Under the pieces are notes generated by a model that saw nothing but the letters and a program-made list of their open reading frames with translations, searched no databases and was not told the DNA's origin. Shown in pieces: positions 5,537 through 31,018 of a stretch of 64,000 bases of DNA. The translations under genes were made by a program, and so were the position numbers. Source of the stretch: Pedobacter sp. (lineage in GTDB: Bacteria; Desulfobacterota; Desulfuromonadia; Desulfuromonadales; Syntrophotaleaceae); the NCBI GenBank assembly GCA_050253415.1, contig JBFWJC010000001.1, positions 744,679-808,678 of the forward strand, given 5' to 3'. The first letter of the stretch is position 1; each line of letters starts with the position of its first letter.

Positions 5537-6733
5537 CTACCAGACCACGATCATCACCCAAGTACAGAACAGCACGAAACAAACCCTTAACACCTGCGCA
5601 CTGACAGCCATCACCAGGCCGGGTCGTGCGCCGAGGGTGGCCAGGTAGGTGGGCAGGGCGTGGCGCAGGGTACGAATCGGGGCGGTGATGACCGAACCGA
5701 GCAGGATCACGGTGACGGCCTGTTTGATGGACAGGCTGCCGGCATCGACGAAGTTGGCTGCCGCGATGGCGCCGTTATACATATTGACCGCCTGGGCCGG
5801 GATAATGGCTACCGCCTGCGGTGGCAAGAAAGCGGGTTTGAACACACTGGGCAGCCACACCGCCAGGTATTCGAAAACCTTGCATTGTTCCAGCAGCGCC
5901 ATGGCCGCGAAGGTCGGTACCACGTACAGCAGCAGGCGCCGGATGGTGCGCCGGGATCGCTTCCATACCCGTTTCCAGAAATCCACACTGGCAAAAGCCG
6001 GTCGTTGCAGTGTTTTGCCGTTATCGGCAACGGCCTGGCCAGGGACATTGAAACCGGCCCGGTCTTCATTCCACCGCTGGCTGAGCCAGCTGGAAACCAT
6101 CAGCACCAGCACGATTTCCAGGCCGATGGCGGCCAGTCTTACCCCGAACAGGGCACCGGTAGCCATCCAGCCGAAAGCGAAACCCAGTGGCACGATAAAG
6201 GTCGGCAGATGGGCAAACAGCGAGATGCAGGACACCACCAGTACGGAGGTATAGAGATGGCGGTTGTTAATAACCCCCTCGTCGCGGTACGAGACCAGCA
6301 TGCTGTTGGCTACCGCACCCGATTGAAAGGCCATGATAAAGGCCGGAGCTGCCGCGCGGGGCAGGCGTCCCAGTCGGATCAGCGGCCAGGCCAGCACCGA
6401 TAAAGCACTTATCCAGCCAGCCACCTCCAGAATCTGACCGATGAGGATACCTGCGGCAATGATAAAGCCCAGTTCCACCAGCAATACCGCTTTTTGCGGC
6501 CAGAAAGGGAGTTTGCGTTTCCAGCTGCTGTAGGCGGAAGGCCGGGATCTTTCTTGGCGGCGTGCCTGCTCCAGAGCGCGGCCCCGTTCCCCTTCGGCCC
6601 GGATTTTGCCAGGTTTTGACGTAGCGACTTCGGTGGTGGCTGAATGTTCCATGGCTGCAACAGGACAGACGTGTCCCATTGATCCCAACCCGAGAGTCAG
6701 CAAGACCAGCAGCAATAGCAGGGTGCGTCGCAT
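5537..6733 (-). CDS. Nucleoside-recognition (Gate) domain membrane protein, possible metal or corrinoid transporter
   Basis: N-terminal hydrophobic leader and many TM segments; PLIRLGRLP..AAPAFIMAF and a conserved-looking RTLRHALPTY motif; 4 nt downstream of cbiK. Confidence 0.7.
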   Translation of the reverse strand: MRRTLLLLLVLLTLGLGSMGHVCPVAAMEHSATTEVATSKPGKIRAEGERGRALEQARRQERSRPSAYSSWKRKLPFWPQKAVLLVELGFIIAAGILIGQILEVAGWISALSVLAWPLIRLGRLPRAAAPAFIMAFQSGAVANSMLVSYRDEGVINNRHLYTSVLVVSCISLFAHLPTFIVPLGFAFGWMATGALFGVRLAAIGLEIVLVLMVSSWLSQRWNEDRAGFNVPGQAVADNGKTLQRPAFASVDFWKRVWKRSRRTIRRLLLYVVPTFAAMALLEQCKVFEYLAVWLPSVFKPAFLPPQAVAIIPAQAVNMYNGAIAAANFVDAGSLSIKQAVTVILLGSVITAPIRTLRHALPTYLATLGARPGLVMAVSAQVLRVCFVLFCTWVMIVVW

Positions 6734-8828: not shown

Positions 8829-8915
8829 GTCAAAACCGACAGCTCGGTTTTGCATTAGCGTCGACGCGATTTCCGTTACGGAGGGCCGATGCCTCAGCCC
8901 TCCGTATCTAGCTGC

Positions 8916-10331
8916 TTACAGCGAAGTCAAATCGATGCTGGTCGTGGTGTCCGCATCCCAATCTTCCCACAGATAGGTGTCTTCCTTACCGTCGGCGATC
9001 AGACGCAGGGCATAGCGTACCTGCTCTTCGTACAGTTCGCAGAATGCGCCGGGGACGTTCTGGCCACCGTTCATTTCATGCGCTTCGGCGGGGCAGGGCG
9101 AACCGCAGAAATGGCGGATTGCGCAGTTTTTACAGGGGTCGATGTTTTCCACCACGCGTTCGGTGACAGCGCGGAAGGGTTCGCTTTGCAGCACCGCCTC
9201 GATATCGTCGGTGTACAGGTTGCCGCCTTTGAAGCGTTCCACACCGACGAATTCGCTGCAGGGGAACATGTCGCCGGAGGCGGACAGGGCGAAGAAACAG
9301 CGACCACCGCCGCAGGGCGAGATGTCGCACATCAGGCGGCGGGCCGCCGGTGCCACGACGCTGACCAGCACATTGGCGAAGTTGGCCACTACCAGCTTGC
9401 GGCCGGTTTTTTCGTACAGCTCGTAGGTGCGATCGAGGGCCTTGAGGTACCACTTGGCCATTTCATGATCGAGGGGCTTGATGTCGCGCGCGCCCTGGCG
9501 GGTGCAGCGTACCTGATTGAGCATGCAGATCGGAACCTCATGCTCGTGGAAGAAATCGACCATCTCCACCAGTTTGTCCATATTCTCCTGGGTGACGGTG
9601 CAGATGACGTTGAAATTGGCGTAGCCCTTGAGTTTGTTCATGGCCCGGACCACGTGGGCGTAGACACTGTCGCCTTCCCAGGTTTTGCGGGTGCGGGTGC
9701 AGATGTCTTCGAGGTGGCTGTCGAGGGACAGACCGATGCCGATGTTGCGCTCGGTAAGAAAGGCAATAGCTTCGTCATCCAGCAATGTGCCGTTGGTCTG
9801 TACGCCGAAACGGAAATCGTCCAGGTAGGCATCGATGCCGGCAAAAACCGCTTCGCGGGCCATCATAGGCTCGGCGCCGTGGAAGATGATCTGCGGCTTG
9901 TGACCCTCGGGAACGGTGGTTTTAAAGTATTCCTTGAGGATGCCCAGGGCTTTGATCAATTCGTCCGGAGTCATGGTCTTGCCGTCGCTGCGCATGTCCT
10001 CCGGGATGTAGCAGTAGGAACAGTTGAGATTGCAGCGGTCGGTGGGGTTGAAATAGACCGCCGACGGTTTCAGGCCGAAGCGCAAAGCGTCGATCTCCTC
10101 AAGGAATTCATCGCGACGGCTCAGAAACTGCTGCATGAAAGTGCTTTCGTTGCACAGCGCCTCACCCAGTTTGTCCTTCTGGATAAGGGACCAGAACGCC
10201 GCATCGGGATCGAGCAGCGCGACATACTCGGGGTGATCGATGCTGATGGGCAGCAAGCTGGGGCCGTTGCCGGTGTTGAAGTGGATGCCGCGGGAGCAGG
10301 CCTTGTTGTCAAACGTTTTTGTCTCGGACAT
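8916..10331 (-). CDS. cbpB: Peptide-modifying radical SAM/SPASM enzyme (CbpB type)
   Basis: CNLNCSYC radical SAM motif, IIFHGAEP, SPASM cysteines (CDISPCGGGRC, FPCSEF, CKNC..RHFCGSPCPAE); GAGGAG RBS; downstream of a short peptide gene. Confidence 0.9.
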   Translation of the reverse strand: MSETKTFDNKACSRGIHFNTGNGPSLLPISIDHPEYVALLDPDAAFWSLIQKDKLGEALCNESTFMQQFLSRRDEFLEEIDALRFGLKPSAVYFNPTDRCNLNCSYCYIPEDMRSDGKTMTPDELIKALGILKEYFKTTVPEGHKPQIIFHGAEPMMAREAVFAGIDAYLDDFRFGVQTNGTLLDDEAIAFLTERNIGIGLSLDSHLEDICTRTRKTWEGDSVYAHVVRAMNKLKGYANFNVICTVTQENMDKLVEMVDFFHEHEVPICMLNQVRCTRQGARDIKPLDHEMAKWYLKALDRTYELYEKTGRKLVVANFANVLVSVVAPAARRLMCDISPCGGGRCFFALSASGDMFPCSEFVGVERFKGGNLYTDDIEAVLQSEPFRAVTERVVENIDPCKNCAIRHFCGSPCPAEAHEMNGGQNVPGAFCELYEEQVRYALRLIADGKEDTYLWEDWDADTTTSIDLTSL

Positions 10332-10413
10332 GCAGTATCTCCTCAAATAGCGATATGGTTATCGGTTCCGCACTCATATTCGGCGGTCTTATACCTGGAT
10401 TGATTTTTAGGGT

Positions 10414-14225: not shown

Positions 14226-15185
14226 TTAGTTGGTCGTTAGCCATATCCACCCGAATCTCATGCTCAAAAATGCCAGCGCCGCCAACAGCGAAGTGAGCAG
14301 CATCAGCTGCACCGCTGCTGCAATGTGCCGGGATGCCAATGGTTGCCCGGCATCGCCAAAATAGGGCATGTCGGTCAGTTTGCCCTGGCGGTAGACCGGA
14401 CCGCCCAGTTGAATCTCCAGGGCGCCGGCGGTGGCGGCTTCGCTCCAGCCTGAGTTGGGGCTGGGATGGTTGCGCCAGTCGCGCAGGGCGATGCGCCAGG
14501 TGTGTTTCGGGCGCAGGCCGAGCAGGGCGGCTGCGGTTACCGTGATCGGCAGGGTCAGGCGCGCCGGCAGGTAGTTGAGCACGTCGTCAAAGCGGGCCGA
14601 GGCCCAGCCGAACTGCAGGTAACGTTCGTTTTTGTAGCCGAAGGTCGAGTCGAGGGTGCTGGCGGCCTTGTACGCCAGGGCGCCGATCGGACCGAGCAGC
14701 ACCGCCCAGAACAGCGGCGCGGTGACGCCATCCACGGTGTTTTCCGCCACGCTTTCCACCGCCGCACGCACTACCCCGGACCGGTCGAGAGGAGCGGTGT
14801 CGCGGCCGACCAGCCAGCCGACGCGTTGCCGGGCCAGTTCCAGGTTGCCAAGGCGCAGGGCCTTGAGAACCTGCCAGGCGTGCACGGCCAGGTCGCGGGC
14901 GGCGAAGCAGGTCGAGAGCAGCAGGATGCCCAGGGCGTCACCCGCCCAGGGGTGCAGGCGGTATGCTGCGGTAAGCAGCAGGGTGGACACTCCTGCCGTG
15001 GTGGCGACGACGATCATGGTCGTGACGATGCCGGCCAATCGCGGATTGGTAATACTGCGGCGCAGCGGGGCTTCCAGGGCCATGGCCAGCCGTCCCATGC
15101 CTTTGACCGGATGCGGCAGGCGGCGCGGGTCGCCCCACAGCAGATCGAGGCCGATGGCGGCCAGTATCTGCATCTCGAGAGTCAT
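14226..15185 (-). CDS. cbiB: Adenosylcobinamide-phosphate synthase
   Basis: [47 protein letters not shown]. Confidence 0.96.
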
Positions 15186-17776
15186 CGCAACCCCATAAGG
15201 CGATAGATGGCGGGGATGTCGAGACTTTGGCGCACGGCGTCGGCCAGCCGTTCAAAAGCCGGTTCCAGATCGTAGCTGGCCTGGATGGTGCCGAGGGGCT
15301 TGAGACCCTTGCGTTGCCGCAAACGGTCGATGAACCAGCGGCGGAAACCATCGGCGTCGAGCAGGCCGTGCAGATAGCTGCCCCAAAGCAGGCCGTCGCT
15401 GCGGCAGGCGCCCATGGCCTGTCCGCTGCTGCCGATCAGAGCTGGCGGAATGTCTTCTGCCCGGCTCTGGCCATGATGGATTTCGTAGCCGAAGACTTTC
15501 ATGCCGGAAATGCGGTGGCGGGCTTCGGTGCGCGTCAGGGTTTTGTCCTGCTCGAGAACCGTGTCGATGGGAAGCAGCCCGAGACCGACCAACTCGGTTC
15601 CCGGTGATTCGATGCCATGCGGATCGTTGATCGAACGACCGAGAATCTGGTAACCGCCGCAAATGCCGACGATTTCACAGCGGCCCGCGGCGGCCAGCTC
15701 TTGCAGACTGCGGTCGAGGCCGACGGCGCGCAGAAAGGTCAGGTCGCCGATGACGTTTTTGCTGCCCGGCAGGATCACGGCATCCGGGCGACCAAGATCC
15801 TGTACGCGTCGTACGATGCGCAAGCGGACATCCGGTTCGATGCGCAGCGGTTCCACATCGGTGAAATTGGAAATGTGCGGCAGGTCGAGCACGACGATAT
15901 CTACGCCGTCGTCCGCGGAACGCTGGTCGTCGAACAGACCGGACTTGAAGCCGACGGAATCTTCTTCCGGCAGGCCCAGATCCTTCAGGTAGGGCACCAC
16001 CCCGAATACCGGACGTCCGGTGTGCTCCAGGGTGTAATCGAGCGCATCTTTGAGCAGGCTGGCCTGACCCCGAAACCGGTTGACGACGAATCCGGCGATC
16101 TGGGCGCGTTCACTTTCCGACAGGACTTCCATGGAACCGACAAACGAAGCGAAAACGCCGCCGCGGTCGATATCGCCGACCATCAGCACCGGAGCTTTTG
16201 CATACTGGGCCATTTTCATGTTGACGATGTCATGGGCCTTGAGATTGACCTCGGCAGGGCTGCCGGCGCCTTCCAGTACCACGGCGTCATACCCGGCGGC
16301 CAAAGAGTCGTAGGATTCCTTGACCCGTTCGAAGGCTTCGGCCTTGTAACGGAAATATTCCATGACTTTCATATTGCCGACCGGTTTGCCGCAAACGATC
16401 ACCTGGCTGCCGGTGTCGCTGCTCGGCTTGAGCAGGATGGGGTTCATGCGCACGTCCGGATCCAGTCGCGCGGCCTGGGCCTGCACGACCTGGGCGCGCC
16501 CCATCTCTCCGCCGTCGCGGGTGACGAAGGAGTTCAACGACATGTTCTGGGCTTTGAACGGCGCCACCCGGTAGCCGTCCTGCAGCATGATGCGGCACAG
16601 GGCGGCGGCCAGAACACTCTTGCCCGCATTGGAACTGGTGCCCTGGAACATGATGGCCGGTGTATGGTGGCGGGTGGTGATCAGGGGCGCCATGAAAAGT
16701 TCCTGGCGCAGAGCTTCGACCAGTTGCTGGTTTTCGGGTTCGGTGCGCACCGCGATCCGGAAGAAACGTCGGTCAAGGCCTTCGAAATTATCGCAGACCC
16801 GGATGGCCAGGCCGCGTTTGAGTAATCGCGCAGCCAGGGCGGGTGCGTCCATGGAGGTGCGATCACAGCGCACCAGCATGAAATTTGCCTGCCCCGGATA
16901 GACCTTCAGGTAGGGAATCTGCTCCAGTTGCATACGCAATTTGTCGCGCAGAACACCGATGGCGGCCCGTGACTGTTGGGTGTACTCGGTATCGAGCAAG
17001 GCAGCCTCGCCGACCTTCTGGGCGATCGTATTGACCGACCAGGGGGGTTGCAGAGATTTGACCTTCTGCACGGTTGACGGCGAAGCCACGGCCAGGCCCA
17101 GGCGCAATCCGGGGATGGCGAAAATCTTGGTCAGAGACAGCATTACCACGACATTGCCGGGGCGGTTGACGGTGAGGCTGTCGAAATCTTCCACAAAATC
17201 GGCAAAAGCCTCATCCACGATAAAGGTCGCGTTAGGGAAACGCCGCGCCAGATGCCGTAGGCGATGCGCGTCGAAGGTCCGGCCCGTCGGATTGTTGGGT
17301 TGACCCAGGGGCACCATGGTGGGGGTGTCCGCCAATGCCTTCAAGGCTGCTTCGACCTGATCGAAGTCGAGGGCGAAGCCGGTTTCTTCTGACATAGGCA
17401 GAATGTGAATTCTCAAACCGGCGACACGCGCGGCACTTGCGTAATCGACATAGCTCGGCACCGGGATGAGTGCCTGCCGAACCTTGAGAGCATGGGGAAG
17501 CAGGTAAAACAGCTCGGTGGAACCGTTGCCGATAAGAATCTCGTCAGGATTTACGCCATAACGCTCGCAAGCGGCCTCGACCAATGCCTGGCCCTCAGGG
17601 TCGGGGTAGTGCACCAACGAGCTGATGCTGCCACTGATGCGGGCGCGCAACCACTCGGGGGGGCCCAGAGGGTTGATGTTGGCCGAAAAGTCGCGCAGTG
17701 ATTCGGGGTTCACACCGGCGGTCATGGCCAATTGTCGCAGGTGGCCTCCGTGTCGCCAGTTGCCGGATTCCGTCAT
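15182..17776 (-). CDS. cbiP: Fusion of threonine-phosphate decarboxylase CobD and cobyric acid synthase CbiP/CobQ
   Basis: N-half [39 protein letters not shown]-half [39 protein letters not shown]. Confidence 0.95.
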
Positions 17777-22972: not shown

Positions 22973-23008
22973 AAAAAAAAAATCCCCGAAGCATAAGGCT
23001 TCGGGGAT
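22973..23008 (-). terminator. Intrinsic terminator of the riboswitch expression platform
   Basis: Minus strand ATCCCCGAAGC-N5-GCTTCGGGGAT running into a run of ~10 T, just before the first gene's RBS. Confidence 0.9.
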
Positions 23009-23093
23009 AACGTTTTTTATCCGCCTGTTACGGTTTGCACACGGCGAATCTTTGTCCGGCCTCAATCCTCGAAGGTCGTAACAGCACGTGTGC

Positions 23094-23254
23094 AGGACAG
23101 GCAGGTCTTCTGGCTCCCGGGTCATTCTTTCGGCCACGCCTTCCCTTTCGTCGTTACGAAAAGTGGCATTCTGTGGCTTTCGTCACCGGTTACAGCGGCG
23201 GGACCGCGACGGATTCACACCGTCTTCCCTGTTAGGCTTTAAAGCACCTGTCCT
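23094..23254 (-). ncRNA. Cobalamin (B12) riboswitch
   Basis: Minus strand AGGACAGGTG...AACAGGGAA-GACGGTGTGAATCCGTC-GCGGTCCCGCCGCTGTAA...GCCACT...GGGAAGGC...GAGCCAGAAGACCTGCCTGTCCT (B12 box), upstream of the cob/cbi cluster. Confidence 0.97.
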
Positions 23255-23378
23255 TGGTCAAATTGTAAGGCACCAGGTCGAAGCTGCAAGCTTCTAAGTA
23301 CCTGTTGTATGTTTTAACAGATGACCTCCGGTAAAACTATCCCCAAAATGGGGTATTTCTTTTCTCCCCCATCGAATA

Positions 23379-24206
23379 TCAGGATGAGGTGTCTGACACC
23401 GGTTCGTGACGCAAACGCAGATGCCAGGCCAGCGGCAGACAGAATTTGGAGATACCGGTCAGAAGGGTTCCGGTTAGTACGATGGCCCACATGGTCCCGG
23501 CATCCAGCTGGTCCCGGAACAGCCCGGTGACCAGGGTGGTGCCCCACAGCAGGCTTAATCCAAGTATCAGCTGAACATTCTGGCTCATGGCGTGTATGCC
23601 CCAGAAATTTTCGGAAATACGACTCAGATTGCCATGACGCAATTTAATTTCAATGAGTTTAAACCAGACCCGCCCTTCGGCGACCTGCGCCGAGCCGTCG
23701 AAAATATGATGCAGCAGATAAAGCACGATAAGCAGATATTTGCTGAAGGTCAAATTGCCGAAACAGGAGCTGAAAAACGGCGGATAGCACAGCACCAGCA
23801 TCGCTGCGCCGAGGGCCTGGCCGATGCCGACCAGGGTCAGCCCGTTGATAAGCTTTTGCAGCTGATGATGTTTGTCGGCCAATCGCTCCAGGTGATCGAC
23901 AAAGGATGAGACTTTGATGCTGCTGACGAAGGTGATGCCGGGATACACATATTTGGTTAATACCCCCAGCACCGCGGCGACCTTGTACTCGGTTTCGGCC
24001 ATGGTGAACATGGTGTAGAGAACCGCGCCTTCAAGGATGCTCTTGCCTATCGTGTACATGAAGTTACCGGCTTCGCCAAAACGGTAGAAGCGGCTGATGA
24101 CCAGCGCATGAGCCCATAGGTGCGTCTTGTGGATGACATCACGGACCAGCCCGGGGTGTCCATTGTGGGAAGGCGACTCAATCTTAGGAGGCAGTTCATG
24201 ATTCAT
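23379..24206 (-). CDS. Unknown integral membrane protein (about 5-6 TM segments)
   Basis: 275-aa ORF with several hydrophobic segments; no family recognised. Confidence 0.75.
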   Translation of the reverse strand: MNHELPPKIESPSHNGHPGLVRDVIHKTHLWAHALVISRFYRFGEAGNFMYTIGKSILEGAVLYTMFTMAETEYKVAAVLGVLTKYVYPGITFVSSIKVSSFVDHLERLADKHHQLQKLINGLTLVGIGQALGAAMLVLCYPPFFSSCFGNLTFSKYLLIVLYLLHHIFDGSAQVAEGRVWFKLIEIKLRHGNLSRISENFWGIHAMSQNVQLILGLSLLWGTTLVTGLFRDQLDAGTMWAIVLTGTLLTGISKFCLPLAWHLRLRHEPVSDTSS

Positions 24207-24257
24207 GGGGTCGGTTCTTTCCCTGTGGCTAATACCGTGCAGAGTGCCGCCTGGTTG

Positions 24258-24293
24258 AAAAAAGGCGTAACGACGAATTAAGACCGTTACGCC
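24258..24293 (-). terminator. Probable intrinsic terminator after the lyase gene
   Basis: GGCGTAACG/CGTTACGCC stem with a T6 run on the minus strand; a second hairpin lies at 24321-24349. Confidence 0.65.
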
Positions 24294-24358
24294 CTGTCGA
24301 GCATAGCTGCTTCTGTAGTCGGGACGCCGGCGGCTACCGCCGACGTCCCTGGATGAGA

Positions 24359-26620
24359 TTACATGGCTTTCAGCAGCTTCACCGTTTCACGGGCCGCTTT
24401 GCGCGGATCGAGACCGGTGTTGGAAATACCGGAAATAACCTTGGTCACATCATGGTCGACGGTACCGGCGGCCCAGGTGGCCGGGGCAACACGGGTCATG
24501 TAGACCGAGTAGGCATGATGACCGCTACCCGGGCGTTCGCCGATGATGTGGATGATGGCCTTGGGAGTCGTGGCGGGATCCGTGAACAGGATGTCGCCGG
24601 CCTGATATCCAGCGCGTACGCGGCCGCTGGTTACCACGATGTTTTCCTTGGCCACGGTCCAGCCGGCCTTGGCCAGTTCAGACTTCAGCTCATCCATGTA
24701 AGGCATGAGATGGTCCTCGTCCATGAGCGCCTTGGCGTTCAAACCATCGGAAAGAACGATCTGTACATCCGGAGCTTTACCGCCCCAGGCGGCCCGCAGT
24801 TTATTGAGGGTTGCCACGGAGGCGTCATTGAATTCCTCGCCAGTGCTCGGATGCGCGACATAGTCTTCCCGGTCGGCCGATTTGGTCTGCAGCGTCACGG
24901 CGTTGGGGATGGAGGCGATGAATTCAGGAGTGAACTCGGCCCACAGACTGACCTTGGCGTCGTCATACAGGGCATGCATCTCCTGGTTGGTTTTCGGATT
25001 CAGATCCCAGATGTTTTTGCCAAACCCGATGGCCAGGGGTACGCCGCGAGCCTGAACTTCATCCACCTTCTTCTGACCTTCGGCGTAGATCTCCTTCATG
25101 CTGCGGGTATCGCCTTTGGCCAGGCGGTACTGATAGTAGACCCAGATGGGATCGCCAAAATGTTCAGTCGGTTTGCCGTTGGCGTCGATGACCTTGATTT
25201 TCTTGAAGAAGTTCCACATGTCATCGTTAACTTTGAAACCGAATTTTTCGCGCAGGCGCACATGGTCCTGGTAACCCGTGGTCAGGTAGCTGAGCATCGG
25301 GTCGTTTTTGGTCGGCAGCGCCATCAGGTAGCCGGGGTTGGCCGGGGCGATCTGGTCCTGGCACCAGTCGAGGTCGTCCAGGGTAACGGGCATGTGCAAG
25401 GTGGAGCAGATATCGAGGCCGATGATCAGGCCATGCAGTTTGCCCATGGCGATGTCTTCCAGACAGGTGCGGACCAATTGCTCGCGGGTTTTGAAGACTT
25501 CGGGACCGATGAAACCGGCTACGTCGTTGACATGACACCAGGCACCCTGGCCGTCGGTCTGGGCGGCTGCAACCTGCTGTTTGAGTGCGCGGGCGAAGCC
25601 GTATTTGCGCGATTCATGCACGACCATGTCAAAGCCTTTGCCATGGCCGTTGGTGAAGTCGGCACCCTGGCCGGTTTCATGATACAAACCGTATTTGCCG
25701 GTGCGCATTCTCGCGTAATTCATCATTTTTTCCAGGGTCAGGTCGAAAGTCTTGTTGGCGTCGACTACGCCGGCCAGACTCTGGAACCAGATCGCGGTGG
25801 ACCCGGGGTTGTTCTTTTCAACCTCGGCCTGCACATCGATGTGCGACAGCACGCACCAGGGGTTGTACTTGTCGACGCCGAAGGTCTGCATGACGTCGCG
25901 CAGGGCCAGTTCGATGTTTTCGATGTTCTGCGGTTGGCTGTCAACGGGGTTGTTGCCGACCACGATGTCGCCGACGGCATAGGAGTAGGCGTCAAAGGTC
26001 TGCCAGACGATGTCGTCGAGATTGTCGGTCGGCGAGTTGGGCTGGATGCGGGCGCTAATGTAGCCTTTGGCGCCGATTTTGGAACCGGGCAGGGGGTTGA
26101 AGACCGTCTGGCCGATTCTGGTCAGTTCGTCGTTGGACATCATTTTGACCACGTTGGCGATGATATCGCTGTGCAACCCGTACATGATGCTCTTGATCTG
26201 GGCTTCGGACTTGGTCAGGAGAAAGTTTTTCAGTTCACCCATGGTCCAGTTTTTGACTTTGTTGTACTGGGCCATGTCGGTGGTGTTGGTGATGAGTTCG
26301 TACTGCGCATCCAAAAACAAGGGCTTGTCCACCAGATCCTTGATTTTGGTGTTGGCCATGAGTTTGCGGGCATTTTCACGGCTGGCATCGTCATCGGCCG
26401 CTACGCCGATGGCCTCATCGCCTTCCTTGAAGGAGTTGGCGGCCCCGACCACTTGTTGGTAAAGGGTCTGGTCAAATTGACCTTTGGCCCGCGTAACGTA
26501 GGCGAATATGTCTTCGCCCGGTTTGACGTCGCGGATGGCGACCGCTCCGGCCAGGCTCGCCACAAAAGTCAGGGCCAGGCCAAACGTGATGCCGTACAGC
26601 AATTTTGCGTTGAGTTGCAT
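24359..26620 (-). CDS. eutB: Single-chain ethanolamine ammonia-lyase (EutB-EutC fusion) with N-terminal signal peptide
   Basis: EutB motifs RIQPNSPTDN, GDIVVGNNP, CVLSHI, FQSLAG, ETGQG, GFIGPE, LEDIAMGKL; EutC motifs DVQIVLSDGL, GRV, IGERPG; leader MQLNAKLLYGITFGLALTFVASLAGA; GGAGG RBS. Confidence 0.9.
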   Translation of the reverse strand: MQLNAKLLYGITFGLALTFVASLAGAVAIRDVKPGEDIFAYVTRAKGQFDQTLYQQVVGAANSFKEGDEAIGVAADDDASRENARKLMANTKIKDLVDKPLFLDAQYELITNTTDMAQYNKVKNWTMGELKNFLLTKSEAQIKSIMYGLHSDIIANVVKMMSNDELTRIGQTVFNPLPGSKIGAKGYISARIQPNSPTDNLDDIVWQTFDAYSYAVGDIVVGNNPVDSQPQNIENIELALRDVMQTFGVDKYNPWCVLSHIDVQAEVEKNNPGSTAIWFQSLAGVVDANKTFDLTLEKMMNYARMRTGKYGLYHETGQGADFTNGHGKGFDMVVHESRKYGFARALKQQVAAAQTDGQGAWCHVNDVAGFIGPEVFKTREQLVRTCLEDIAMGKLHGLIIGLDICSTLHMPVTLDDLDWCQDQIAPANPGYLMALPTKNDPMLSYLTTGYQDHVRLREKFGFKVNDDMWNFFKKIKVIDANGKPTEHFGDPIWVYYQYRLAKGDTRSMKEIYAEGQKKVDEVQARGVPLAIGFGKNIWDLNPKTNQEMHALYDDAKVSLWAEFTPEFIASIPNAVTLQTKSADREDYVAHPSTGEEFNDASVATLNKLRAAWGGKAPDVQIVLSDGLNAKALMDEDHLMPYMDELKSELAKAGWTVAKENIVVTSGRVRAGYQAGDILFTDPATTPKAIIHIIGERPGSGHHAYSVYMTRVAPATWAAGTVDHDVTKVISGISNTGLDPRKAARETVKLLKAM

Positions 26621-26737
26621 GTGACACCTCCATTGTTCGGGTGAACCACAGGGTCTGTGATTTTCTTAGGGTTACCCTGTGTGTCAGTTCGCGTACACGG
26701 ATAGAGAAGATCGTCTAACGGAGATGATGCCAAAATT

Positions 26738-27847
26738 CTATTCCCGGTGTTTTTTCGCCTCCTCCCACATATCGTTGAACGCTTTTTCTGTCTCCTCGCT
26801 CATGACCCGCCATAAGGCGACGGTCTTGAAATAGTTTTCGTCTCCTACGTGGAACATGGTTTTTTCCTTGTCGTCAAGCAGGTCGCCCACATCGGCGATG
26901 ACCGGCGAGACACCTTGCGCTTTGACCACGTCAGCCTGCCGCACCGGATCAAGCATGAAGTTGATCCATTCCTCGGCCAGGGTTTTGGTCATGCCCTTGG
27001 CGCCGGCGCCGATGTACCAGCAGTCGATCCAGGCGGTACCGCCTTCCTGGGGGCTGGCCAACAGCCAGTTACCTCCTTTGAGGTTGGCCTGGGCGGCGGC
27101 AAAACCCCAGGTGGTTGCCAGCGACAGTTCCGGAAACTCATCCGGATTGGCGGCTCCATCCCACAGGCTTTTGGCATTTTTGGCGAGTACGTTGAGTTGT
27201 TGCTGAACTTTGTCCCGATCAAGACGCTCGATGTCGAAGATGTCGGCATAGCCGTAACCGAGAGCCAGCGCCGTGATCCAGACATTAACCTTGGGGAAAT
27301 TATTGTTGATGGTGTATTTGCCGGCGTACCGGGGTTCCCACAGGATGTTCCAGCTGTCCGGGGCTTCAGTGACCTGGTCCAGGTTGTAGGCCAGGCCGTA
27401 GGGGCCGCAATTGTAGGGAACGCCGTAGCGCTGACCGGCAAAAATCGGGGTGGTGTCGTCACGGAACACCGGCATCATGTTTTTGAGGTTGGGGATATTG
27501 TTGATATCCACCGGCTGCAGGTAAGGAGTCTCCTCGGAATAAGCATAAAAACGCGGGATTTTCGGCAGTTCGATGGGGGGCGAGATCAGATCCGCCGTGT
27601 TGTCTTTTACCGCCATGAAGAACTCGTCCTGATCCGTAGGATTGGCGATCAACACTTCGACATCGACCTGGTACTTATCCTTGATCAGTTTCTGGAAATC
27701 GGCCACATAAGGTTTGGCATAGCCGCTCCAGCATGTAATACGCAACGTTTCTTTTTTGGCCTTACTGCAACCCGGAGCCAGTGCCAGGCCGATGGCGACC
27801 AGGCCCAGGATGCCGAAAAGCGGTACCTGCCAAAATGCTTTTCTCAT
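26738..27847 (-). CDS. PotD/PotF-like extracellular solute-binding lipoprotein
   Basis: Lipoprotein-like leader ending APGC; WSGY, NIPNL, YGVPY..GPYGLAYN, PDSWNILW, PQEG..AWID, WINFML; AGGAGG RBS. Confidence 0.88.
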   Translation of the reverse strand: MRKAFWQVPLFGILGLVAIGLALAPGCSKAKKETLRITCWSGYAKPYVADFQKLIKDKYQVDVEVLIANPTDQDEFFMAVKDNTADLISPPIELPKIPRFYAYSEETPYLQPVDINNIPNLKNMMPVFRDDTTPIFAGQRYGVPYNCGPYGLAYNLDQVTEAPDSWNILWEPRYAGKYTINNNFPKVNVWITALALGYGYADIFDIERLDRDKVQQQLNVLAKNAKSLWDGAANPDEFPELSLATTWGFAAAQANLKGGNWLLASPQEGGTAWIDCWYIGAGAKGMTKTLAEEWINFMLDPVRQADVVKAQGVSPVIADVGDLLDDKEKTMFHVGDENYFKTVALWRVMSEETEKAFNDMWEEAKKHRE

Positions 27848-27938
27848 GATGATCCTCCTGCTGTTTCGGTGTTCGGGGTTCATGGGTGCCGTGGCTTGTT
27901 GCCTGGCCGGCACGAGGTCTCGGCCGGTCAAACGTTTG

Positions 27939-27964
27939 CGGCGGGGAGGACGTCCTCCCCGCCG
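27939..27964. promoter_or_regulatory. Perfect GC-rich stem-loop after the porin gene (stabiliser or attenuator)
   Basis: CGGCGGGGAGGA-CG-TCCTCCCCGCCG. Confidence 0.6.
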
Positions 27965-27989
27965 GAGATAAAAATTAAAAAGCCTTTGG

Positions 27990-28727
27990 CTAGAAGGTGA
28001 AGGTCAGGTTGAGCGCTGCCGCCGTCTCGGTGTCGATAAGGTCCTTGGCGGCACTGCTGATCGGCGATGAGAAAATAAAGATCGGGCTGATGGTCAGCTG
28101 GTCGGTCAATGCGTAATCGAGGCTGGCACTCAGCTCATAGTTATGCCACCCGGCGTAGTCGGCTACGGTGCCATCGGCATGCTGGTTGTAGGAAATCAGG
28201 GCGCCGAGATTCAGGGTGGTTTCGGGAATCCACTGAGTAAGGTCGAAGCTATGGCCAACGTCAAAGCTGAAGAACAGGCCGTCTTCTTCAGCGCGGTCCC
28301 AGTCGTAGGAAATTTTCAGGTTCGGCGAGAGCAGGGTGTTGACGGTGAAGGTAACGAACAGCTCGTTGGTGTCCTCCCCTTCGATCATGTACCAGATATC
28401 GCCGACCGACATGGAAATCATGTCGCCCAGATCAAATGCATAGGTCAGGATAACGTCGGTTTCGTTGAGTTCCCCGGAATCCCAGTTGGGACCGCTGGTC
28501 AACTGCCAGTTGTGCCAGGTGCTGAGGGTAAATCCGCCGCCGAGAGTCAGGTCGATGCCGCCCTGGATGGTCGGGCGGGAGTCACTCAGATTAAATCCAC
28601 GCCACATGTACTTGTCCCAGAGGCCGACGTAGGCATCGCCTTCGACCTCGATTTTTGCCTGGGCGGTGGTTGCCAGCCCGGCACACAACACGAACATCGC
28701 AACAAACAACACACTCCACTTTTTCAT
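27990..28727 (-). CDS. Putative outer-membrane beta-barrel (TorF/TIGR02001-like porin)
   Basis: Signal peptide ending AQA; KYMWRG, PTIQGG, ETD...Y; alternating beta strands; C-terminal LTFTF. Confidence 0.82.
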   Translation of the reverse strand: MKKWSVLFVAMFVLCAGLATTAQAKIEVEGDAYVGLWDKYMWRGFNLSDSRPTIQGGIDLTLGGGFTLSTWHNWQLTSGPNWDSGELNETDVILTYAFDLGDMISMSVGDIWYMIEGEDTNELFVTFTVNTLLSPNLKISYDWDRAEEDGLFFSFDVGHSFDLTQWIPETTLNLGALISYNQHADGTVADYAGWHNYELSASLDYALTDQLTISPIFIFSSPISSAAKDLIDTETAAALNLTFTF

Positions 28728-29132: not shown

Positions 29133-30830
29133 TCAGATTTCGATTTCTTTGACCTGTATGGCCGAGCCGGGACGGGTCAGGTAGACAAACAGCAGCACGG
29201 TGCGAAGGGTTTCCTTGCCGGGGAGTCTGGAAAACACACAAGCCAGGTGCTGGAGTTTGATCCCCTGTCCTTTGATGCTCTCGGTTTCGAGGCGTACATG
29301 CTCGCGTACGCGCTCCTGCTCGTCGGGACGCAGGTCGAGGTTGAGGAATTCCGGAGCGTGGGCGGGAGCCACTCTTTCGACCCGGACAAAGTCACGGGCC
29401 AGGGCCTCCTGCAGTGGTGGAAGCTGTAGTGGATCGCAAGCGTGCTGGATAAAATTCCAGCATTCATCGAACAGGGAACGCTGGGACATCAGGCGGCGGA
29501 ACAGCCCCTGACTGCGCCAGAAAGTTTCCAGAGCCCTTAACGCAGCCGAAAGGCTTCCGTGAAGCATCGAAAGCTGTTCAAGGAATTCCTGCAGCCGCCC
29601 CGAGTTCCAGGTCAGGTCCAGCAGTCGGCCGATGCCGCGCAGACCCTCAAGTTCCTCAAAAGTCAGGTCGGGAGTGGCAAGAACACCGTAGGGTGGATGG
29701 GGGTCGAAGCGCAGTCCCAGGGCGGCGGCATCGCGTCGCAGTGGGGCGCCGGGCAGCAATTTTACTGGTTCCAATTGCAGATGGTGAGGGCGCAGGGCCA
29801 TGACCCGGTCGACCGATTGCAAAAAGGAGTCGCTCCCCTGGCCGGGCAGCCCGGCGATCAGGTCAAGATGCAGGTGAATGTTGCCCGACCGGCAGAGGCG
29901 TCGGACATTAGCTTCCAGTTTTTCCAGGGAGGTTTCGCGTCCGATGGCTTCGAGGGTTTCCGGCAGGGTGGACTGTACGCCAATCTCGAACTGGAATATC
30001 TCGTCGGGGACCTGTTCCAGCAACGACAGCGTAGCATCGTCCAGCAGGTGAGCGCCGATCTCGAAATGGAACCGGCTGACGCGGTTGTGCTCCAGAATGA
30101 AACGGAAGATGTCGCGGGCACGCGCAGCATCGTAATTGAAGGTGCGATCCACCAGCTTGATGGTAGGAACCTCGTGCTGCATCAGCCAGAGCAGGTCGGC
30201 CCGGATGCGTTGCATGGAATAGGAGCGCACCCGGGTGTCGAGAGCACTCATGCAGAAGGAGCAGCGGTAAGGGCAACCACGACTGGTTTCAAGGTAGACC
30301 AACCCGCGCGACAGGTCGACCAACTCCAGCAGATAAGGCGACGGGATGTCGTCAAGGTCGGTCAACAATGGGCCGTCTGGACCGGATTGCACGTTTTCGC
30401 CGTCTCGCCAGCTGAGCCGTGGAATGCCGGCGGGCCGATGCCCCTGCTGCCAGGCGTCGAGTAGTGCCCGCAGCGGGAGTTCACCCTCGCCATGCACCAG
30501 CGCGGCGATACCGGGGTGGCGCTCAAACAGTTGCGGACCGTCGAAGGACACCTCGGGGCCGCCCAGCACCACCCGCAGACCGGGCCGGGCCACGGCCAGG
30601 GCATCGGCCAGTTCCAGTGTGGCGGTGCGGTTCCAGATGTAGACGGAAAACGCCACCACGTCAGGTTGCTCGGCCAGCAGTGCCGCCAGCACCGTCTCTT
30701 TCGGTTCGTGGACCGTGAACTCCCGGATGAGCAAGGCCGGTTGCGACTGACGGCAATAAGCCGCAAGCAGTGGCAGAGCCAGGCTGGCATGAATGAATTT
30801 ACTGTGAAGGGTCGACAGGATAACGCGCAT
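29133..30830 (-). CDS. B12-binding-domain radical SAM protein (DUF4080-type C-terminus)
   Basis: SKFIHASLAL, FSVYIWN, LGGPEVS, ETSRGCPYRCSFC, VDRTFN, FEIGVQS, HLDLIAGLP. Confidence 0.9.
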   Translation of the reverse strand: MRVILSTLHSKFIHASLALPLLAAYCRQSQPALLIREFTVHEPKETVLAALLAEQPDVVAFSVYIWNRTATLELADALAVARPGLRVVLGGPEVSFDGPQLFERHPGIAALVHGEGELPLRALLDAWQQGHRPAGIPRLSWRDGENVQSGPDGPLLTDLDDIPSPYLLELVDLSRGLVYLETSRGCPYRCSFCMSALDTRVRSYSMQRIRADLLWLMQHEVPTIKLVDRTFNYDAARARDIFRFILEHNRVSRFHFEIGAHLLDDATLSLLEQVPDEIFQFEIGVQSTLPETLEAIGRETSLEKLEANVRRLCRSGNIHLHLDLIAGLPGQGSDSFLQSVDRVMALRPHHLQLEPVKLLPGAPLRRDAAALGLRFDPHPPYGVLATPDLTFEELEGLRGIGRLLDLTWNSGRLQEFLEQLSMLHGSLSAALRALETFWRSQGLFRRLMSQRSLFDECWNFIQHACDPLQLPPLQEALARDFVRVERVAPAHAPEFLNLDLRPDEQERVREHVRLETESIKGQGIKLQHLACVFSRLPGKETLRTVLLFVYLTRPGSAIQVKEIEI

Positions 30831-31018
30831 GGCCGCCAGCATAACGAAGGATGCTTCGCGAGAAAAGGGGAAAATCACTGCCGCCAGCACTTAAGGGTGA
30901 ATGCCTGTTTTAGTGAGGCCGGTTCGACCTCCATGATCTAAACCATTTTCATGGCTACCTTGTTAACGTGTCCTTCGTGTCCTCACCTGTTGACTGAAAA
31001 CCTCAAGATACTGTTCTT

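What the first reader, a model, noticed from the sequence alone, without database searches (positions are those of the whole stretch)
23379..28727. Apparent periplasmic B12-radical enzyme system: porin, orphan binding lipoprotein, exported single-chain ethanolamine ammonia-lyase and an unknown membrane protein
Seen: four co-oriented genes directly upstream of the B12 riboswitch. The lyase fuses EutB and EutC and begins with a Sec-like leader (Lys, hydrophobic core, AGA cleavage site, no twin-Arg). The porin and binding protein also carry export signals. The window shows no ABC permease or ATPase, eutA reactivase, microcompartment shell gene or aldehyde dehydrogenase. Established: characterised EutBC enzymes are two-subunit, cytoplasmic or microcompartment-bound, and need adenosylcobalamin. 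Inference: substrate enters by the porin, is captured by the lipoprotein and is deaminated in the periplasm, which could replace a microcompartment for containing acetaldehyde. The fusion would let both subunits be exported together. This implies an unknown route to supply and exchange AdoCbl outside the cytoplasm.
Basis: partly seen in the sequence, partly recalled or inferred. Interest (0 to 1): 0.9.

Follow-up and report, generated by a model that had tools for sequence, protein, structure and literature searches.

The report
Exported single-chain ethanolamine ammonia-lyase system
A B12-dependent ethanolamine-splitting enzyme that normally works inside the cell here carries a conserved export signal, so it probably works in the periplasm, which would be unusual for this class of radical enzyme.

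Summary
On the minus strand lie four genes: a TorF-type porin, a PotD/F-like binding lipoprotein, a fused EutB-EutC lyase and an unknown membrane protein. A cobalamin riboswitch and the cob operon follow. The genome is a Syntrophotalea (Pelobacter) close to S. carbinolica. The cluster and the "unusual fusion" were described there in 2012, but as a cytoplasmic enzyme fed by uptake.

New here:
- The fused lyase belongs to a large family (517 confirmed genome loci) that almost always carries an export signal.
- Desulfuromonadales and Desulfobacterales have a classical Sec/SPase-I leader: -1 is Ala in 109 of 117 homologues.
- Bacteroidota, Planctomycetota, Myxococcota and others have twin-arginine (Tat) leaders.
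- Catalytic residues and fold match E. coli EutBC.
- The genome has no shell proteins, EutH or true EutA.
- The unknown membrane protein has the fold of one six-helix half of an MFS transporter and is predicted to form a homodimer.
- It sits beside 17 of 26 Sec-type copies and 0 of 40 Tat-type copies, usually followed by a corrinoid-type ABC system. One such system lies beside the paralogous cluster 6 kb outside the window.

Best reading: a periplasmic lyase (about 0.7). A cofactor-traffic role for the membrane protein is speculative. No experiment supports localisation yet.

The parts
27990..28727 (-). TorF/Gcw_chp-family outer-membrane porin with a Sec signal peptide (MKKWSVLFVAMFVLCAGLATTAQA|KIEVEG)
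   Evidence: Pfam PF09694 3.5e-10. TIGR02001 49.5 bits, above the 47.15 cut-off. The leader is conserved in homologues next to EutBC.
26738..27847 (-). PotD/PotF-like solute-binding protein, probably a lipoprotein (lipobox-like LAPGC). No cognate permease in the window.
   Evidence: SBP_bac_6 1.3e-48. Distant relative of solved putrescine/spermidine binders, best 7xjm_A at 1.7e-14. The Cys is conserved in Desulfuromonadales copies, while L012, L016 and L023 have a plain Sec leader.
24359..26620 (-). Single-chain ethanolamine ammonia-lyase, EutB-linker-EutC, 753 aa
   Evidence: The AF2 model matches 3abo_A (TMt 0.89, rmsd 2.2 A) and 3abo_B (TMt 0.72).
26543..26620 (-). Predicted Sec/SPase-I signal peptide, residues 1-26, cleavage AGA|VAIRD
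   Evidence: RBS GGAGG. n/h/c-region statistics over 117 homologues. In the model it is a low-confidence lone helix, pLDDT 58-63, with residues 18-24 below 50.
25112..26497 (-). EutB (large-subunit) part, residues 42-503
   Evidence: NF011649 643.7 bits. R191, Q193, N224, E315 and D403 are invariant and M433 is at least 90% conserved in A1.
24362..25021 (-). EutC (small-subunit) part, residues 534-753
   Evidence: Pfam EutC 1.1e-35. Aligns to 3any_B, 5ysn_B and 3abo_B.
23379..24206 (-). Unknown six-helix membrane protein with the fold of one MFS half; predicted homodimer
   Evidence: No family match. AF2 pLDDT 90.2. All 50 top VIA rows are MFS transporters, Z 15.4-10.5. Dimer ipSAE 0.60 against a best control of 0.00.
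23083..23266 (-). Cobalamin riboswitch aptamer heading the downstream cob operon (not the four genes)
   Evidence: RF00174 121.8 bits.
22982..23008 (-). Terminator-like hairpin (11 pairs plus a T run); likely expression platform of the riboswitch

Best explanation
The four genes encode an ethanolamine-splitting system that works outside the cytoplasm.

- The single-chain EutB-EutC lyase is made with a Sec signal peptide, exported, cleaved after Ala26 and assembled in the periplasm.
- There it converts ethanolamine, which enters through the TorF-type porin and is possibly captured by the PotD/F-like lipoprotein, into acetaldehyde and ammonium.
- Acetaldehyde diffuses into the cell, where this organism's acetaldehyde-centred fermentation uses it.
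- The conserved six-helix half-MFS protein is a homodimeric transporter that serves the exported enzyme.
- Its most likely job is traffic of adenosylcobalamin or spent corrinoid across the inner membrane. It would act together with the corrinoid-type ABC system encoded beside the paralogous copy.

Shown: gene content, family membership, conservation of the leader, and co-occurrence. Inferred: localisation, cleavage, substrate route and cofactor route.
For: 1. Start and leader. GGAGG lies 6 nt before the ATG. The paralogue has the same layout.

2. Leader statistics. 117 of the 120 best homologues could be scored; 3 N-terminally truncated ones were dropped.
- 116 have K/R in the first 10 residues.
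- 117 have a 10-residue hydrophobic window of at least 1.8.
- Position -1 is Ala in 109; position -3 is Ala in 91 and Val in 14; position +1 is Val in 108.
- Median leader length is 26.
- The h-region sequence varies freely, while the site and the mature end are conserved.

3. Leaders across 80 genome loci. I read them by eye: 31 Sec-like, 34 with RR (xRRxFL-type), 12 with [ST]RKxF[LIM], and 3 other (one leaderless, one truncated, one unclear).
- TIGR01409 TAT_signal is over its cut-off in 7 loci and listed below it in 11.
- It is absent from the 30 Sec-like loci scanned and from both window paralogues.
- h-regions are more hydrophobic in the Sec class (mean 2.72) than in the Tat classes (1.89 and 1.84).

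4. The enzyme is intact.
- EutB is above the curated cut-off.
- The residues aligned to E. coli R160, Q162, N193, E287, D362 and M392 are conserved and invariant or nearly so in 36 family members.
- The model superposes on 3abo chains A and B.

5. The genome has no BMC shell domain, no EutH and no real EutA. An ATP-dependent reactivase would be useless in the periplasm.

6. Aldehyde:ferredoxin oxidoreductase is adjacent in 6 loci. This fits acetaldehyde as the product.

7. The membrane protein.
- It is adjacent in 17 of 26 Sec-type loci with enough downstream DNA, and in 0 of 40 Tat-type loci.
- 14 of those 17 are followed by an ABC ATPase, a Peripla_BP_2 protein and a FecCD permease.
- In a 401-genome phylum sample it occurs in 16 genomes, 14 of which have the fused lyase.
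- Fold and dimer: (ipSAE 0.60, best control 0.00; partner pLDDT at least 73; contact agreement at least 87%).
Against: - No experiment bears on localisation. No AdoCbl-dependent radical enzyme is known outside the cytoplasm or a microcompartment (my knowledge; searches found none).
- Export by Sec means an unfolded apo-protein. A roughly 500-kDa oligomer would then have to assemble and acquire a light- and oxygen-sensitive cofactor in a compartment without ATP, adenosyltransferase or reactivase.
- The link with the membrane protein is imperfect. 9 of 26 Sec-type loci lack it nearby.
- It was not found in the genomes of L011, L026, L036, L037 and L046 (completeness unknown), nor in G390 (99% complete, Sec-like leader).
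- Kin are not independent. The co-occurrence may reflect only two or three evolutionary events.
- FecCD/BtuC-type ABC systems are importers. No exporter function is known for the half-MFS fold seen here.
- The cob operon and the adenosyltransferase beside the cluster fit a cytoplasmic enzyme equally well.
Confidence: 0.7

Rival explanations
1. Cytoplasmic lyase with uptake (the 2012 annotation model). The binding protein and the multi-helix membrane protein import ethanolamine (or choline), and the lyase acts in the cytoplasm. The N-terminal hydrophobic stretch is not used, is a mis-called start, or tethers the enzyme to the inner face of the membrane.
For: - Aklujkar et al. 2012 proposed uptake by these proteins (PMC3543383, section 12 passages).
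- AdoCbl synthesis, the adenosyltransferase and the riboswitch lie in the same gene array.
- The membrane protein has a transporter fold.
- The binding protein resembles amine binders.
Against: - The RBS fits the upstream ATG. The next in-frame Met is residue 88, inside the EutB domain.
- Conservation of AxA at -3/-1, with a freely varying h-region, has no reason in an uncleaved anchor.
- A positive n-region predicts N-in, so the body is outside.
- Relatives carry Tat motifs.
- The membrane protein occurs in 7 loci that have no binding protein, so the two are not an obligate pair.
Confidence: 0.12
2. Exported but not cleaved. The leader acts as a signal anchor, so the lyase sits on the periplasmic face of the inner membrane.
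For: The hydrophobic stretch plus c-region is about 20 residues, enough to span the membrane. Being tethered next to a membrane transporter would suit cofactor hand-over.
Against: - Ala at -1 in 109 of 117 and a small residue at -3 in 103 of 117 is the signature of SPase I sites.
- The median length of 26 is typical of cleaved Gram-negative leaders.
Confidence: 0.1
3. Exported corrinoid-binding protein rather than an enzyme. A lyase-derived periplasmic B12 scavenger or store, which would explain its place inside the cob/btu gene array.
For: It sits between cobalamin biosynthesis genes and next to a corrinoid-type ABC system.
Against: - All substrate- and ribose-contacting residues are invariant across the family.
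- Identity across phyla is 54-83% over the whole length.
- Aldehyde:ferredoxin oxidoreductase is adjacent in 6 loci.
- The relative S. carbinolica grows on ethanolamine (PMC3543383).
Confidence: 0.05

Closest known systems
Ethanolamine ammonia-lyase EutB/EutC of E. coli and Salmonella (PDB 3abo and others)
   Same: - Both domains are present.
- 30% identity to EutB, with all aligned active-site residues kept.
- The model superposes: TMt 0.89 on chain A and 0.72 on chain B.
   Different: - One chain instead of two.
- The EutC N-terminal encapsulation region is replaced by a conserved linker.
- It carries an N-terminal export signal.
- The genome has no shell proteins, EutA or EutH.
eutBC-1 and eutBC-2 clusters of Pelobacter (Syntrophotalea) carbinolicus, Pcar_0490-0493 and Pcar_0466-0469 (Aklujkar et al. 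2012, PMC3543383)
   Same: - Orthologous: lyase 92% identical, membrane protein 80%.
- Same duplication, same embedding in the cob array, and the same absence of eutA was noted.
   Different: That paper treats the lyase as cytoplasmic and the neighbours as an uptake system. None of its three 'signal peptide' passages concerns EutBC. Its Table S2 lists the porin and the membrane protein as conserved hypothetical proteins (term search only).
Tat-exported corrinoid reductive dehalogenases (e.g. PceA)
   Same: An exported corrinoid-dependent enzyme. Tat leaders occur in many relatives of the window's lyase.
   Different: Dehalogenases use a non-adenosylated corrinoid plus Fe-S clusters and belong to an unrelated fold. 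The window's own protein has no twin arginine. (Comparison from my knowledge; PMC4771760 was seen in a search listing only.)
BtuCDF vitamin B12 ABC importer
   Same: The ABC genes beside the paralogous cluster score best against corrinoid ABC ATPase (230.7 bits) and BtuC permease (262 bits) models.
   Different: Both scores are below the curated cut-offs (537 and 461). The binding protein is 377 aa with a long N-terminal extension. The system is genetically coupled to the half-MFS protein.
Major facilitator superfamily transporters
   Same: The six-helix bundle superposes on the N- or C-half of many MFS structures, e.g. 9jbs_A at Z 15.4, 205 residues, rmsd 3.6 A.
   Different: It has only six helices in 275 aa, no Pfam MFS match and no sequence similarity. 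It would need to dimerise.

Membership tests
Ethanolamine ammonia-lyase (EutB + EutC) | EutB large-subunit domain above the curated threshold | tested here: met
   Pfam 479.7 bits (cut-off 25). NF011649 643.7 bits (cut-off 554).
Ethanolamine ammonia-lyase (EutB + EutC) | EutC small-subunit domain | tested here: met
   Pfam EutC 123.6 bits (cut-off 25.8). The NCBIfam equivalog NF003971 gives only 95.9 bits against a 230 cut-off. Fold match to 3abo_B, TMt 0.72.
Ethanolamine ammonia-lyase (EutB + EutC) | Active-site residues (E. coli R160, Q162, N193, E287, D362, M392). The list is recalled from the structural literature; only Glu287 was checked in print (PMC4413051 passage). | tested here: met
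   All are aligned and identical. R191, Q193, N224, E315 and D403 are invariant and M433 is at least 90% conserved in 36 sequences.
Ethanolamine ammonia-lyase (EutB + EutC) | Two separate subunits, cytoplasmic or encapsulated | tested here: not met
   A single 753-aa chain with an export leader. No shell genes.
Ethanolamine ammonia-lyase (EutB + EutC) | AdoCbl-dependent deamination of ethanolamine | not testable with these tools
   Needs an enzyme assay.
Sec-type (SPase I) signal peptide | Positive n-region, hydrophobic h-region, small residues at -3 and -1 | tested here: met
   Window: K6, a 10-residue hydrophobic window above 1.8, A24-G25-A26. No SignalP was available.
Sec-type (SPase I) signal peptide | Actual translocation and cleavage | not testable with these tools
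   Needs fractionation and N-terminal sequencing.
Twin-arginine (Tat) signal peptide | RR motif (S/T-R-R-x-F-L-K) before a mildly hydrophobic h-region | tested here: not met
   The window protein and its paralogue have no Arg in the leader and no TIGR01409 hit. By contrast it is met in 34 of 80 related loci read by eye, with 7 over the model's cut-off.
Major facilitator superfamily (for the 275-aa membrane protein) | Sequence match to an MFS family model | tested here: not met
   No Pfam or NCBIfam hit at E <= 0.01.
Major facilitator superfamily (for the 275-aa membrane protein) | Six-helix MFS half fold | tested here: met
   All 50 listed VIA rows are MFS transporters, Z 15.4-10.5, with 174-226 residues aligned. 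Foldseek alone found nothing at E <= 0.001. Helical bundles can reach Z 13 by chance, so this is a fold statement only.
Major facilitator superfamily (for the 275-aa membrane protein) | Twelve helices from two halves (here by homodimer) | tested here: inconclusive
   Prediction only. ipSAE runs 0.71, 0.55 and 0.60, median 0.60; best of 3 controls 0.00. The mark was reached by 20 of 30 solved homomers and 1 of 23 monomers.
TorF/Gcw_chp porin | Family model above the cut-off, plus a signal peptide | tested here: met
   TIGR02001 49.5 bits against 47.15. Pfam 40.7 against 24. Leader.
ABC-type polyamine uptake system (PotD/PotF binding protein) | Binding protein encoded with its permease and ATPase | tested here: not met
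   Binding-protein fold family is met (SBP_bac_6). No permease or ATPase is next to it in either paralogous cluster or among the 38 window ORFs scanned. The rest of the genome was not searched for Pot permeases.
Microcompartment-type eut operon | Shell proteins, EutA reactivase, EutH permease | tested here: not met
   PF00936: 0 hits. PF04346: 0 hits. PF06277: only 29.3 bits over 45 of 475 positions in an unrelated 417-aa frame. The genome is 100% complete.

The most novel reading that the evidence does not exclude
Fused EutBC is a widespread family of exported adenosylcobalamin radical enzymes. Tat-type members leave the cytoplasm folded and loaded with cofactor. Sec-type members, including this one, are exported as apo-protein and depend on a dedicated cofactor cycle across the inner membrane: a homodimeric half-MFS protein exports AdoCbl, and a BtuCDF-like importer recovers spent corrinoid for re-adenosylation. 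This cycle would replace EutA and EutT. The half-MFS protein would then be the first identified cobamide exporter.
Probability: 0.2. Interest if true: 0.9.

Novelty: new variant of a known kind. Interest (0 to 1): 0.8.

Why it matters
All characterised AdoCbl-dependent radical enzymes work in the cytoplasm or inside microcompartments. There ATP-driven reactivases and adenosyltransferases keep them loaded with cofactor. A periplasmic lyase would matter for several reasons:
- It would show that this chemistry can run without those helpers.
- It would offer a second solution, besides the microcompartment, to acetaldehyde toxicity and to the cost of importing a charged substrate and exporting ammonium.
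- It would require AdoCbl to reach the periplasm.

How cobamides cross the inner membrane outward is unknown. A 2026 study of Salmonella cobamide excretion says so explicitly (PMC13532332, passages read). The conserved half-MFS protein and its ABC neighbour give a concrete, testable candidate. The Sec/Tat split within one enzyme family is also a natural experiment on cofactor loading before or after export.

Tried and rejected
- **Selenocysteine in the membrane protein.** The genome search flagged in-frame TGA in four genomes. tblastn alignments over residues 26-265 show no stop. The stops lie in the read-through ends, so I dropped the idea.
- **Riboswitch before the paralogous cluster.** None was found in L003.
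- **Protein atlas look-up of the membrane protein.** No usable hit and no model.
- **Foldseek of the membrane-protein model against PDB.** Nothing at E <= 0.001; the best was 7pmx_A at E 0.024. Only the exhaustive VIA search gave the consistent MFS list.
- **Distant relatives of the membrane protein.** A profile search of 1.84 billion representatives gave 29 hits. 16 are 473-875-aa proteins carrying the domain in their middle, and none of the 16 has a Pfam match. They gave no functional lead.
- **Conserved neighbours of Tat-type copies.** Clustering and Pfam on 91 co-oriented neighbours found no recurrent partner. Exceptions were occasional porins (Gcw_chp in L028 and L029, Legionella_OMP in L058).
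- **Expression.** Two public runs hold small shares of the stretch (0.14 and 0.07 of sampled words). Laid contigs are short pieces, mostly 90-99% alike. One 260-nt piece of a marine-sediment metatranscriptome is identical over 25999-26258. These are contigs of relatives in an RNA library, so they show neither a transcript start nor expression in this strain.
- **Earlier findings of the scan.** None for this place.
- **Literature.** Searches found no paper that reports or predicts an exported EutBC. The library lacks most subscription journals, and the 2009 comparative-genomics paper on eut operons could not be read.
- **Weak TIGR02811 'formate TAT' hits in L005 and L007** (13 bits, E 0.08-0.09). 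They span in-frame sequence upstream of the Met, and I discounted them.

Full report
**What is there**

Between 23379 and 28727 the minus strand carries four co-oriented genes.
- A TorF/Gcw_chp porin (27990-28727).
- A PotD/PotF-like solute-binding protein with a lipobox-like LAPGC (26738-27847).
- A 753-aa fusion of EutB (residues 42-503) and EutC (534-753) (24359-26620).
- A 275-aa membrane protein with no family match (23379-24206).

Downstream lie a cobalamin riboswitch (23083-23266, 121.8 bits) and a strong terminator hairpin. Then comes the cob operon: cysG/cobA, cobC, cobU, cobT, cobS, a CobD-CbiP fusion, cbiB, the CobA/BtuR adenosyltransferase, cbiA, cbiC, cbiK, cbiD and cbiG. The riboswitch therefore heads the cob genes, not the four genes of the finding.

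None of the 38 larger window ORFs I scanned (of 63 called) is an ABC component, a shell protein or an aldehyde dehydrogenase.

**Where it comes from and what was known**

The lyase is 92% identical to that of Syntrophotalea (Pelobacter) carbinolica DSM 2380. The window lies in a 4.1-Mb genome scored 100% complete.

That genome holds a second copy of the whole four-gene unit 6 kb outside the window, with the lyase 71% identical. It is followed, with overlapping stop and start codons, by:
- an ABC ATPase, a Peripla_BP_2 lipoprotein and a FecCD permease;
- then MoxR, DUF58 and VWA genes.

The ABC parts score best against corrinoid ABC ATPase and BtuC models, though below the curated cut-offs.

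Aklujkar et al. 2012 (PMC3543383) described exactly this arrangement in P. carbinolicus. I read the passages of section 12, and term-searched the main text and Table S2. They noted:
- duplicate eutBC genes, 'an unusual fusion';
- binding proteins and multi-transmembrane proteins 'that may mediate uptake';
- proteins of unknown function;
- no eutA;
- a corrinoid-like ABC transporter.

They did not mention a signal peptide on the lyase. None of the paper's three 'signal peptide' passages concerns it.

**Is the leader real?**

The ATG at 26620 has a GGAGG six bases upstream. The paralogue has the same layout. The next in-frame Met is residue 88, inside the EutB domain.

The leader reads MQLNAKLLYGITFGLALTFVASLAGA|VAIRDVKPGED. 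About 37 residues precede the first residue that aligns with E. coli EutB.

All but two of the 120 best database homologues are 749-774 aa and fused; P0035 (684 aa) and P0036 (680 aa, partial) are shorter. I could score 117 of the 120; three are N-terminally truncated.
- 116 have Lys or Arg in the first ten residues.
- All 117 have a strongly hydrophobic window.
- Position -1 is Ala in 109.
- Position -3 is Ala in 91, Val in 14, Gly in 5, Cys in 4 and Ser in 3.
- Position +1 is Val in 108.
- The median leader length is 26.

The hydrophobic core varies freely in sequence. The AxA site and the mature end (VTIxDVKPGEDVF) are conserved. That is the pattern expected of a cleaved Sec signal peptide, not of a membrane anchor or a mis-called start.

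In the AlphaFold model, residues 1-21 form a lone low-confidence helix. Residues 18-24 fall below pLDDT 50, and the body from about residue 30 is confident.

**The family as a whole is exported**

A scan of one genome per species found 599 matching stretches. 517 were confirmed as relatives, and the best 80 were kept. All 80 are fused forms at 54-83% identity. They come from Desulfuromonadales, Desulfobacterales, Myxococcota, Bacteroidota, Planctomycetota, Balneolales, Riflebacteria and a few alphaproteobacterial MAGs.

I read the in-frame upstream sequence by eye and classed the loci as follows.
- 31 are Sec-like.
- 34 have a twin-arginine motif (for example TRRDFL, SRRYFLG, SRRQFLV).
- 12, all Bacteroidota or Balneolota, have [ST]RKxF[LIM], often followed by a lipobox Cys.
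- 3 are other: L042 has a stop six codons before a leaderless start, L029 is cut by the contig end, and L073 is unclear.

The TIGR01409 Tat model was run on the leader region of 78 loci (L011 and L029 were left out) plus the two window paralogues.
- It is over its cut-off in 7 loci.
- It is listed below the cut-off in 11.
- It is absent from all 30 Sec-like loci scanned and from both window paralogues.

Leader hydrophobicity also separates the classes: 2.72 ± 0.41 in 26 Sec rows, 1.89 ± 0.27 in 33 RR rows and 1.84 ± 0.20 in 11 RK rows. This is the direction known for Sec against Tat signals. Relatedness inflates any test on these numbers.

A maximum-likelihood tree of 82 rows was rooted with a distant leaderless fused form, L095 at 38% identity; L025 was dropped as too short. 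The Sec label needs three changes, at least two of them forced by well-supported branches. Two Tat clades are nested among Sec-type branches. Leader type has therefore switched more than once, while the presence of a leader is near-universal.

**It still looks like a working lyase**
- The EutB part exceeds the curated NCBIfam cut-off.
- The residues aligned to E. coli R160, Q162, N193, E287, D362 and M392 are identical. They are invariant, or for the Met at least 90% conserved, in 36 diverse family members.
- That residue list is recalled from the structural literature. Only Glu287 was confirmed in print here (PMC4413051).
- The model superposes on E. coli EutB (3abo_A, TMt 0.89, rmsd 2.2 A) and EutC (3abo_B, TMt 0.72).
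- Aldehyde:ferredoxin oxidoreductase is adjacent in six Sec-type loci, as expected if acetaldehyde is the product.
- The own genome has no shell domain, no EutH and only a 45-position partial EutA match in an unrelated frame.

**The unknown membrane protein**

It has no Pfam, NCBIfam or atlas match. It has only 100 sequence clusters of close relatives (at least 44% identity to the window protein), all unnamed and from Desulfuromonadales or 'delta' MAGs.

The alignment (A2, 34 sequences) shows many invariant polar residues in the helices: E45, D104, E107, C140, Q174, E177, R179, E186, R190, S208, N210 and K254. H166 and H167 are at least 90% conserved.

The AlphaFold model is confident (pLDDT 90.2, pTM 0.86) and shows six long helices.
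- Foldseek gave nothing at E <= 0.001.
- The exhaustive VIA search returned 50 rows that are all MFS transporters, each matched over one six-helix half. Z ranges from 15.4 (9jbs_A, 205 residues, rmsd 3.6 A) down to 10.5.
- Helical bundles can score about 13 by chance. The uniformity of the list is the argument, and it speaks for fold only.

A homodimer test passed.
- ipSAE 0.71, 0.55 and 0.60, median 0.60, against a best control of 0.00.
- Partner pLDDT at least 73; contact agreement at least 87%.
- The mark was reached by 20 of 30 solved homomers and 1 of 23 monomers.
- The symmetric interface is made of the conserved stretches 89-108 and 199-217.

I read it as a half-size MFS-like transporter that works as a dimer.

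**Co-occurrence**

By tblastn against the 80 loci:
- The membrane protein lies just downstream of the lyase in 17 of the 26 Sec-type loci that have at least 1 kb of downstream DNA.
- It lies there in 0 of 40 Tat-type loci with the same amount of flank, and in 0 of the 3 others.
- In 14 of the 17 it is followed by the ABC ATPase, Peripla_BP_2 and FecCD genes.

In a sample of 401 genomes of the phylum:
- 20 have a fused lyase of at least 57% identity, and 16 have the membrane protein. 14 have both.
- The two with only the membrane protein (G273, G374) are fragmented assemblies of a genus that otherwise has both.
- Of the six with only the lyase, five have RR leaders (G392, G356, G296, G082, G240) and one has a Sec-like leader (G390, 99% complete).
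- I did not read the leaders of nine of the 20 genomes.

Against a strict rule:
- Nine Sec-type loci lack the gene nearby.
- It was not found in the genomes of L011, L026, L036, L037 and L046, whose completeness is unknown.
- The binding protein is confined to 11 loci, and the porin family to 14. The membrane protein occurs in 7 loci without the binding protein. Those two are therefore not an obligate importer pair.

**How it most likely works**

Shown:
- a fused, apparently catalytically intact lyase with a conserved Sec-type leader;
- exported neighbours;
- no microcompartment, reactivase or EutH;
- a partner membrane protein of transporter fold tied to Sec-type copies.

Inferred:
- The lyase is exported by Sec, cleaved after Ala26, and assembles in the periplasm.
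- Ethanolamine enters by the porin and may be concentrated by the amine-binding lipoprotein.
- Acetaldehyde diffuses inward to the organism's acetaldehyde-based fermentation, and ammonium stays outside.
- For a fermenter of very low energy yield, this saves the import of a charged substrate and the export of ammonium. It also keeps the aldehyde source out of the cytoplasm.

The open problem is the cofactor. Tat-type relatives can fold and bind AdoCbl before export. Sec-type ones cannot, and the periplasm has no ATP for adenosylation or reactivation. The membrane protein and the corrinoid-type ABC system accompany Sec-type copies and never Tat-type ones. That is what one would expect if they supply AdoCbl and recover spent corrinoid. 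However, this rests on few independent evolutionary events, has exceptions, and has no biochemical precedent. I give it about 0.2-0.3.

**Rivals**
- The 2012 uptake model with a cytoplasmic enzyme (0.12). It is hard to square with the conserved cleavage site and with the Tat leaders of relatives.
- An uncleaved signal anchor holding the enzyme on the outer face of the inner membrane (0.1).
- A non-catalytic corrinoid binder (0.05). The invariant active site speaks against it.

**Novelty and limits**

The genes and the fusion are in print. In the library I could search, the export signal, its family-wide conservation, the Sec/Tat split and the half-MFS partner are not. That library lacks most subscription journals.

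Everything on localisation is sequence inference. No SignalP-type predictor was available, my leader classes were assigned by eye, and the RNA data found do not bear on the question.

Noticed in passing
G000:C1:734521-742787 (locus L003, 6 kb before the window start): A paralogous porin, binding protein, EutBC and membrane protein cluster. It is followed by a corrinoid-type ABC transporter (ATPase, 377-aa Peripla_BP_2 lipoprotein with a long N-terminal extension, FecCD permease) and then MoxR, DUF58 and VWA genes. The membrane-protein stop overlaps the ABC ATPase start.
   Followed up: yes
L035, L045, L048, L054, L062, L066, L070, L074, L079, L082 (Bacteroidota loci): The EutBC leaders combine a Tat-like motif (often S-R-K-x-F-L, with Lys in place of the second Arg) with a lipobox Cys (for example LNGC, LSGC, FNGC). 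This suggests Tat-exported lipoprotein forms of the lyase.
   Followed up: partly
L042 (Desulfobacteraceae MAG); L095 = G297:C277; G204 and G317: Fused EutB-EutC forms without any leader. L042 is 61% identical and branches at the base of the exported family. L095 (38% identical) lacks a leader by the sequence I read; the 32%-identical 705-aa forms in G204 and G317 were not read, and I only infer that they lack one. Fusion therefore predates or is independent of export.
   Followed up: partly
proteins P0229-P0248: Distant relatives of the six-helix membrane domain sit in the middle of 473-875-aa proteins that have large flanking regions and no Pfam match at all. This is an uncharacterised wider family.
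   Followed up: partly
window 15182-17776 (-): An 864-aa fusion of a class I/II aminotransferase domain (CobD-like) with a CobQ/CbiP amidotransferase, inside the cob operon.
   Followed up: no
window 5537-6733 (-): A 398-aa protein with only a weak 'Gate' (nucleoside recognition) domain, directly beside cbiK. The 2012 genome paper says the cobalt uptake route of the close relative is unknown, so this is a candidate worth a look.
   Followed up: no
window 29133-30890 (-): A B12-binding radical SAM protein with DUF4080 lies immediately upstream of the porin gene, co-oriented with it.
   Followed up: no
L015, L020, L021, L033, L043, L046: Aldehyde:ferredoxin oxidoreductase genes lie directly beside Sec-type EutBC genes in Desulfobacterota MAGs.
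   Followed up: partly
window 8889-10403 (+): A 504-aa ORF without any Pfam match lies on the opposite strand in the middle of the cob operon. I did not check whether it is a real gene.
   Followed up: no
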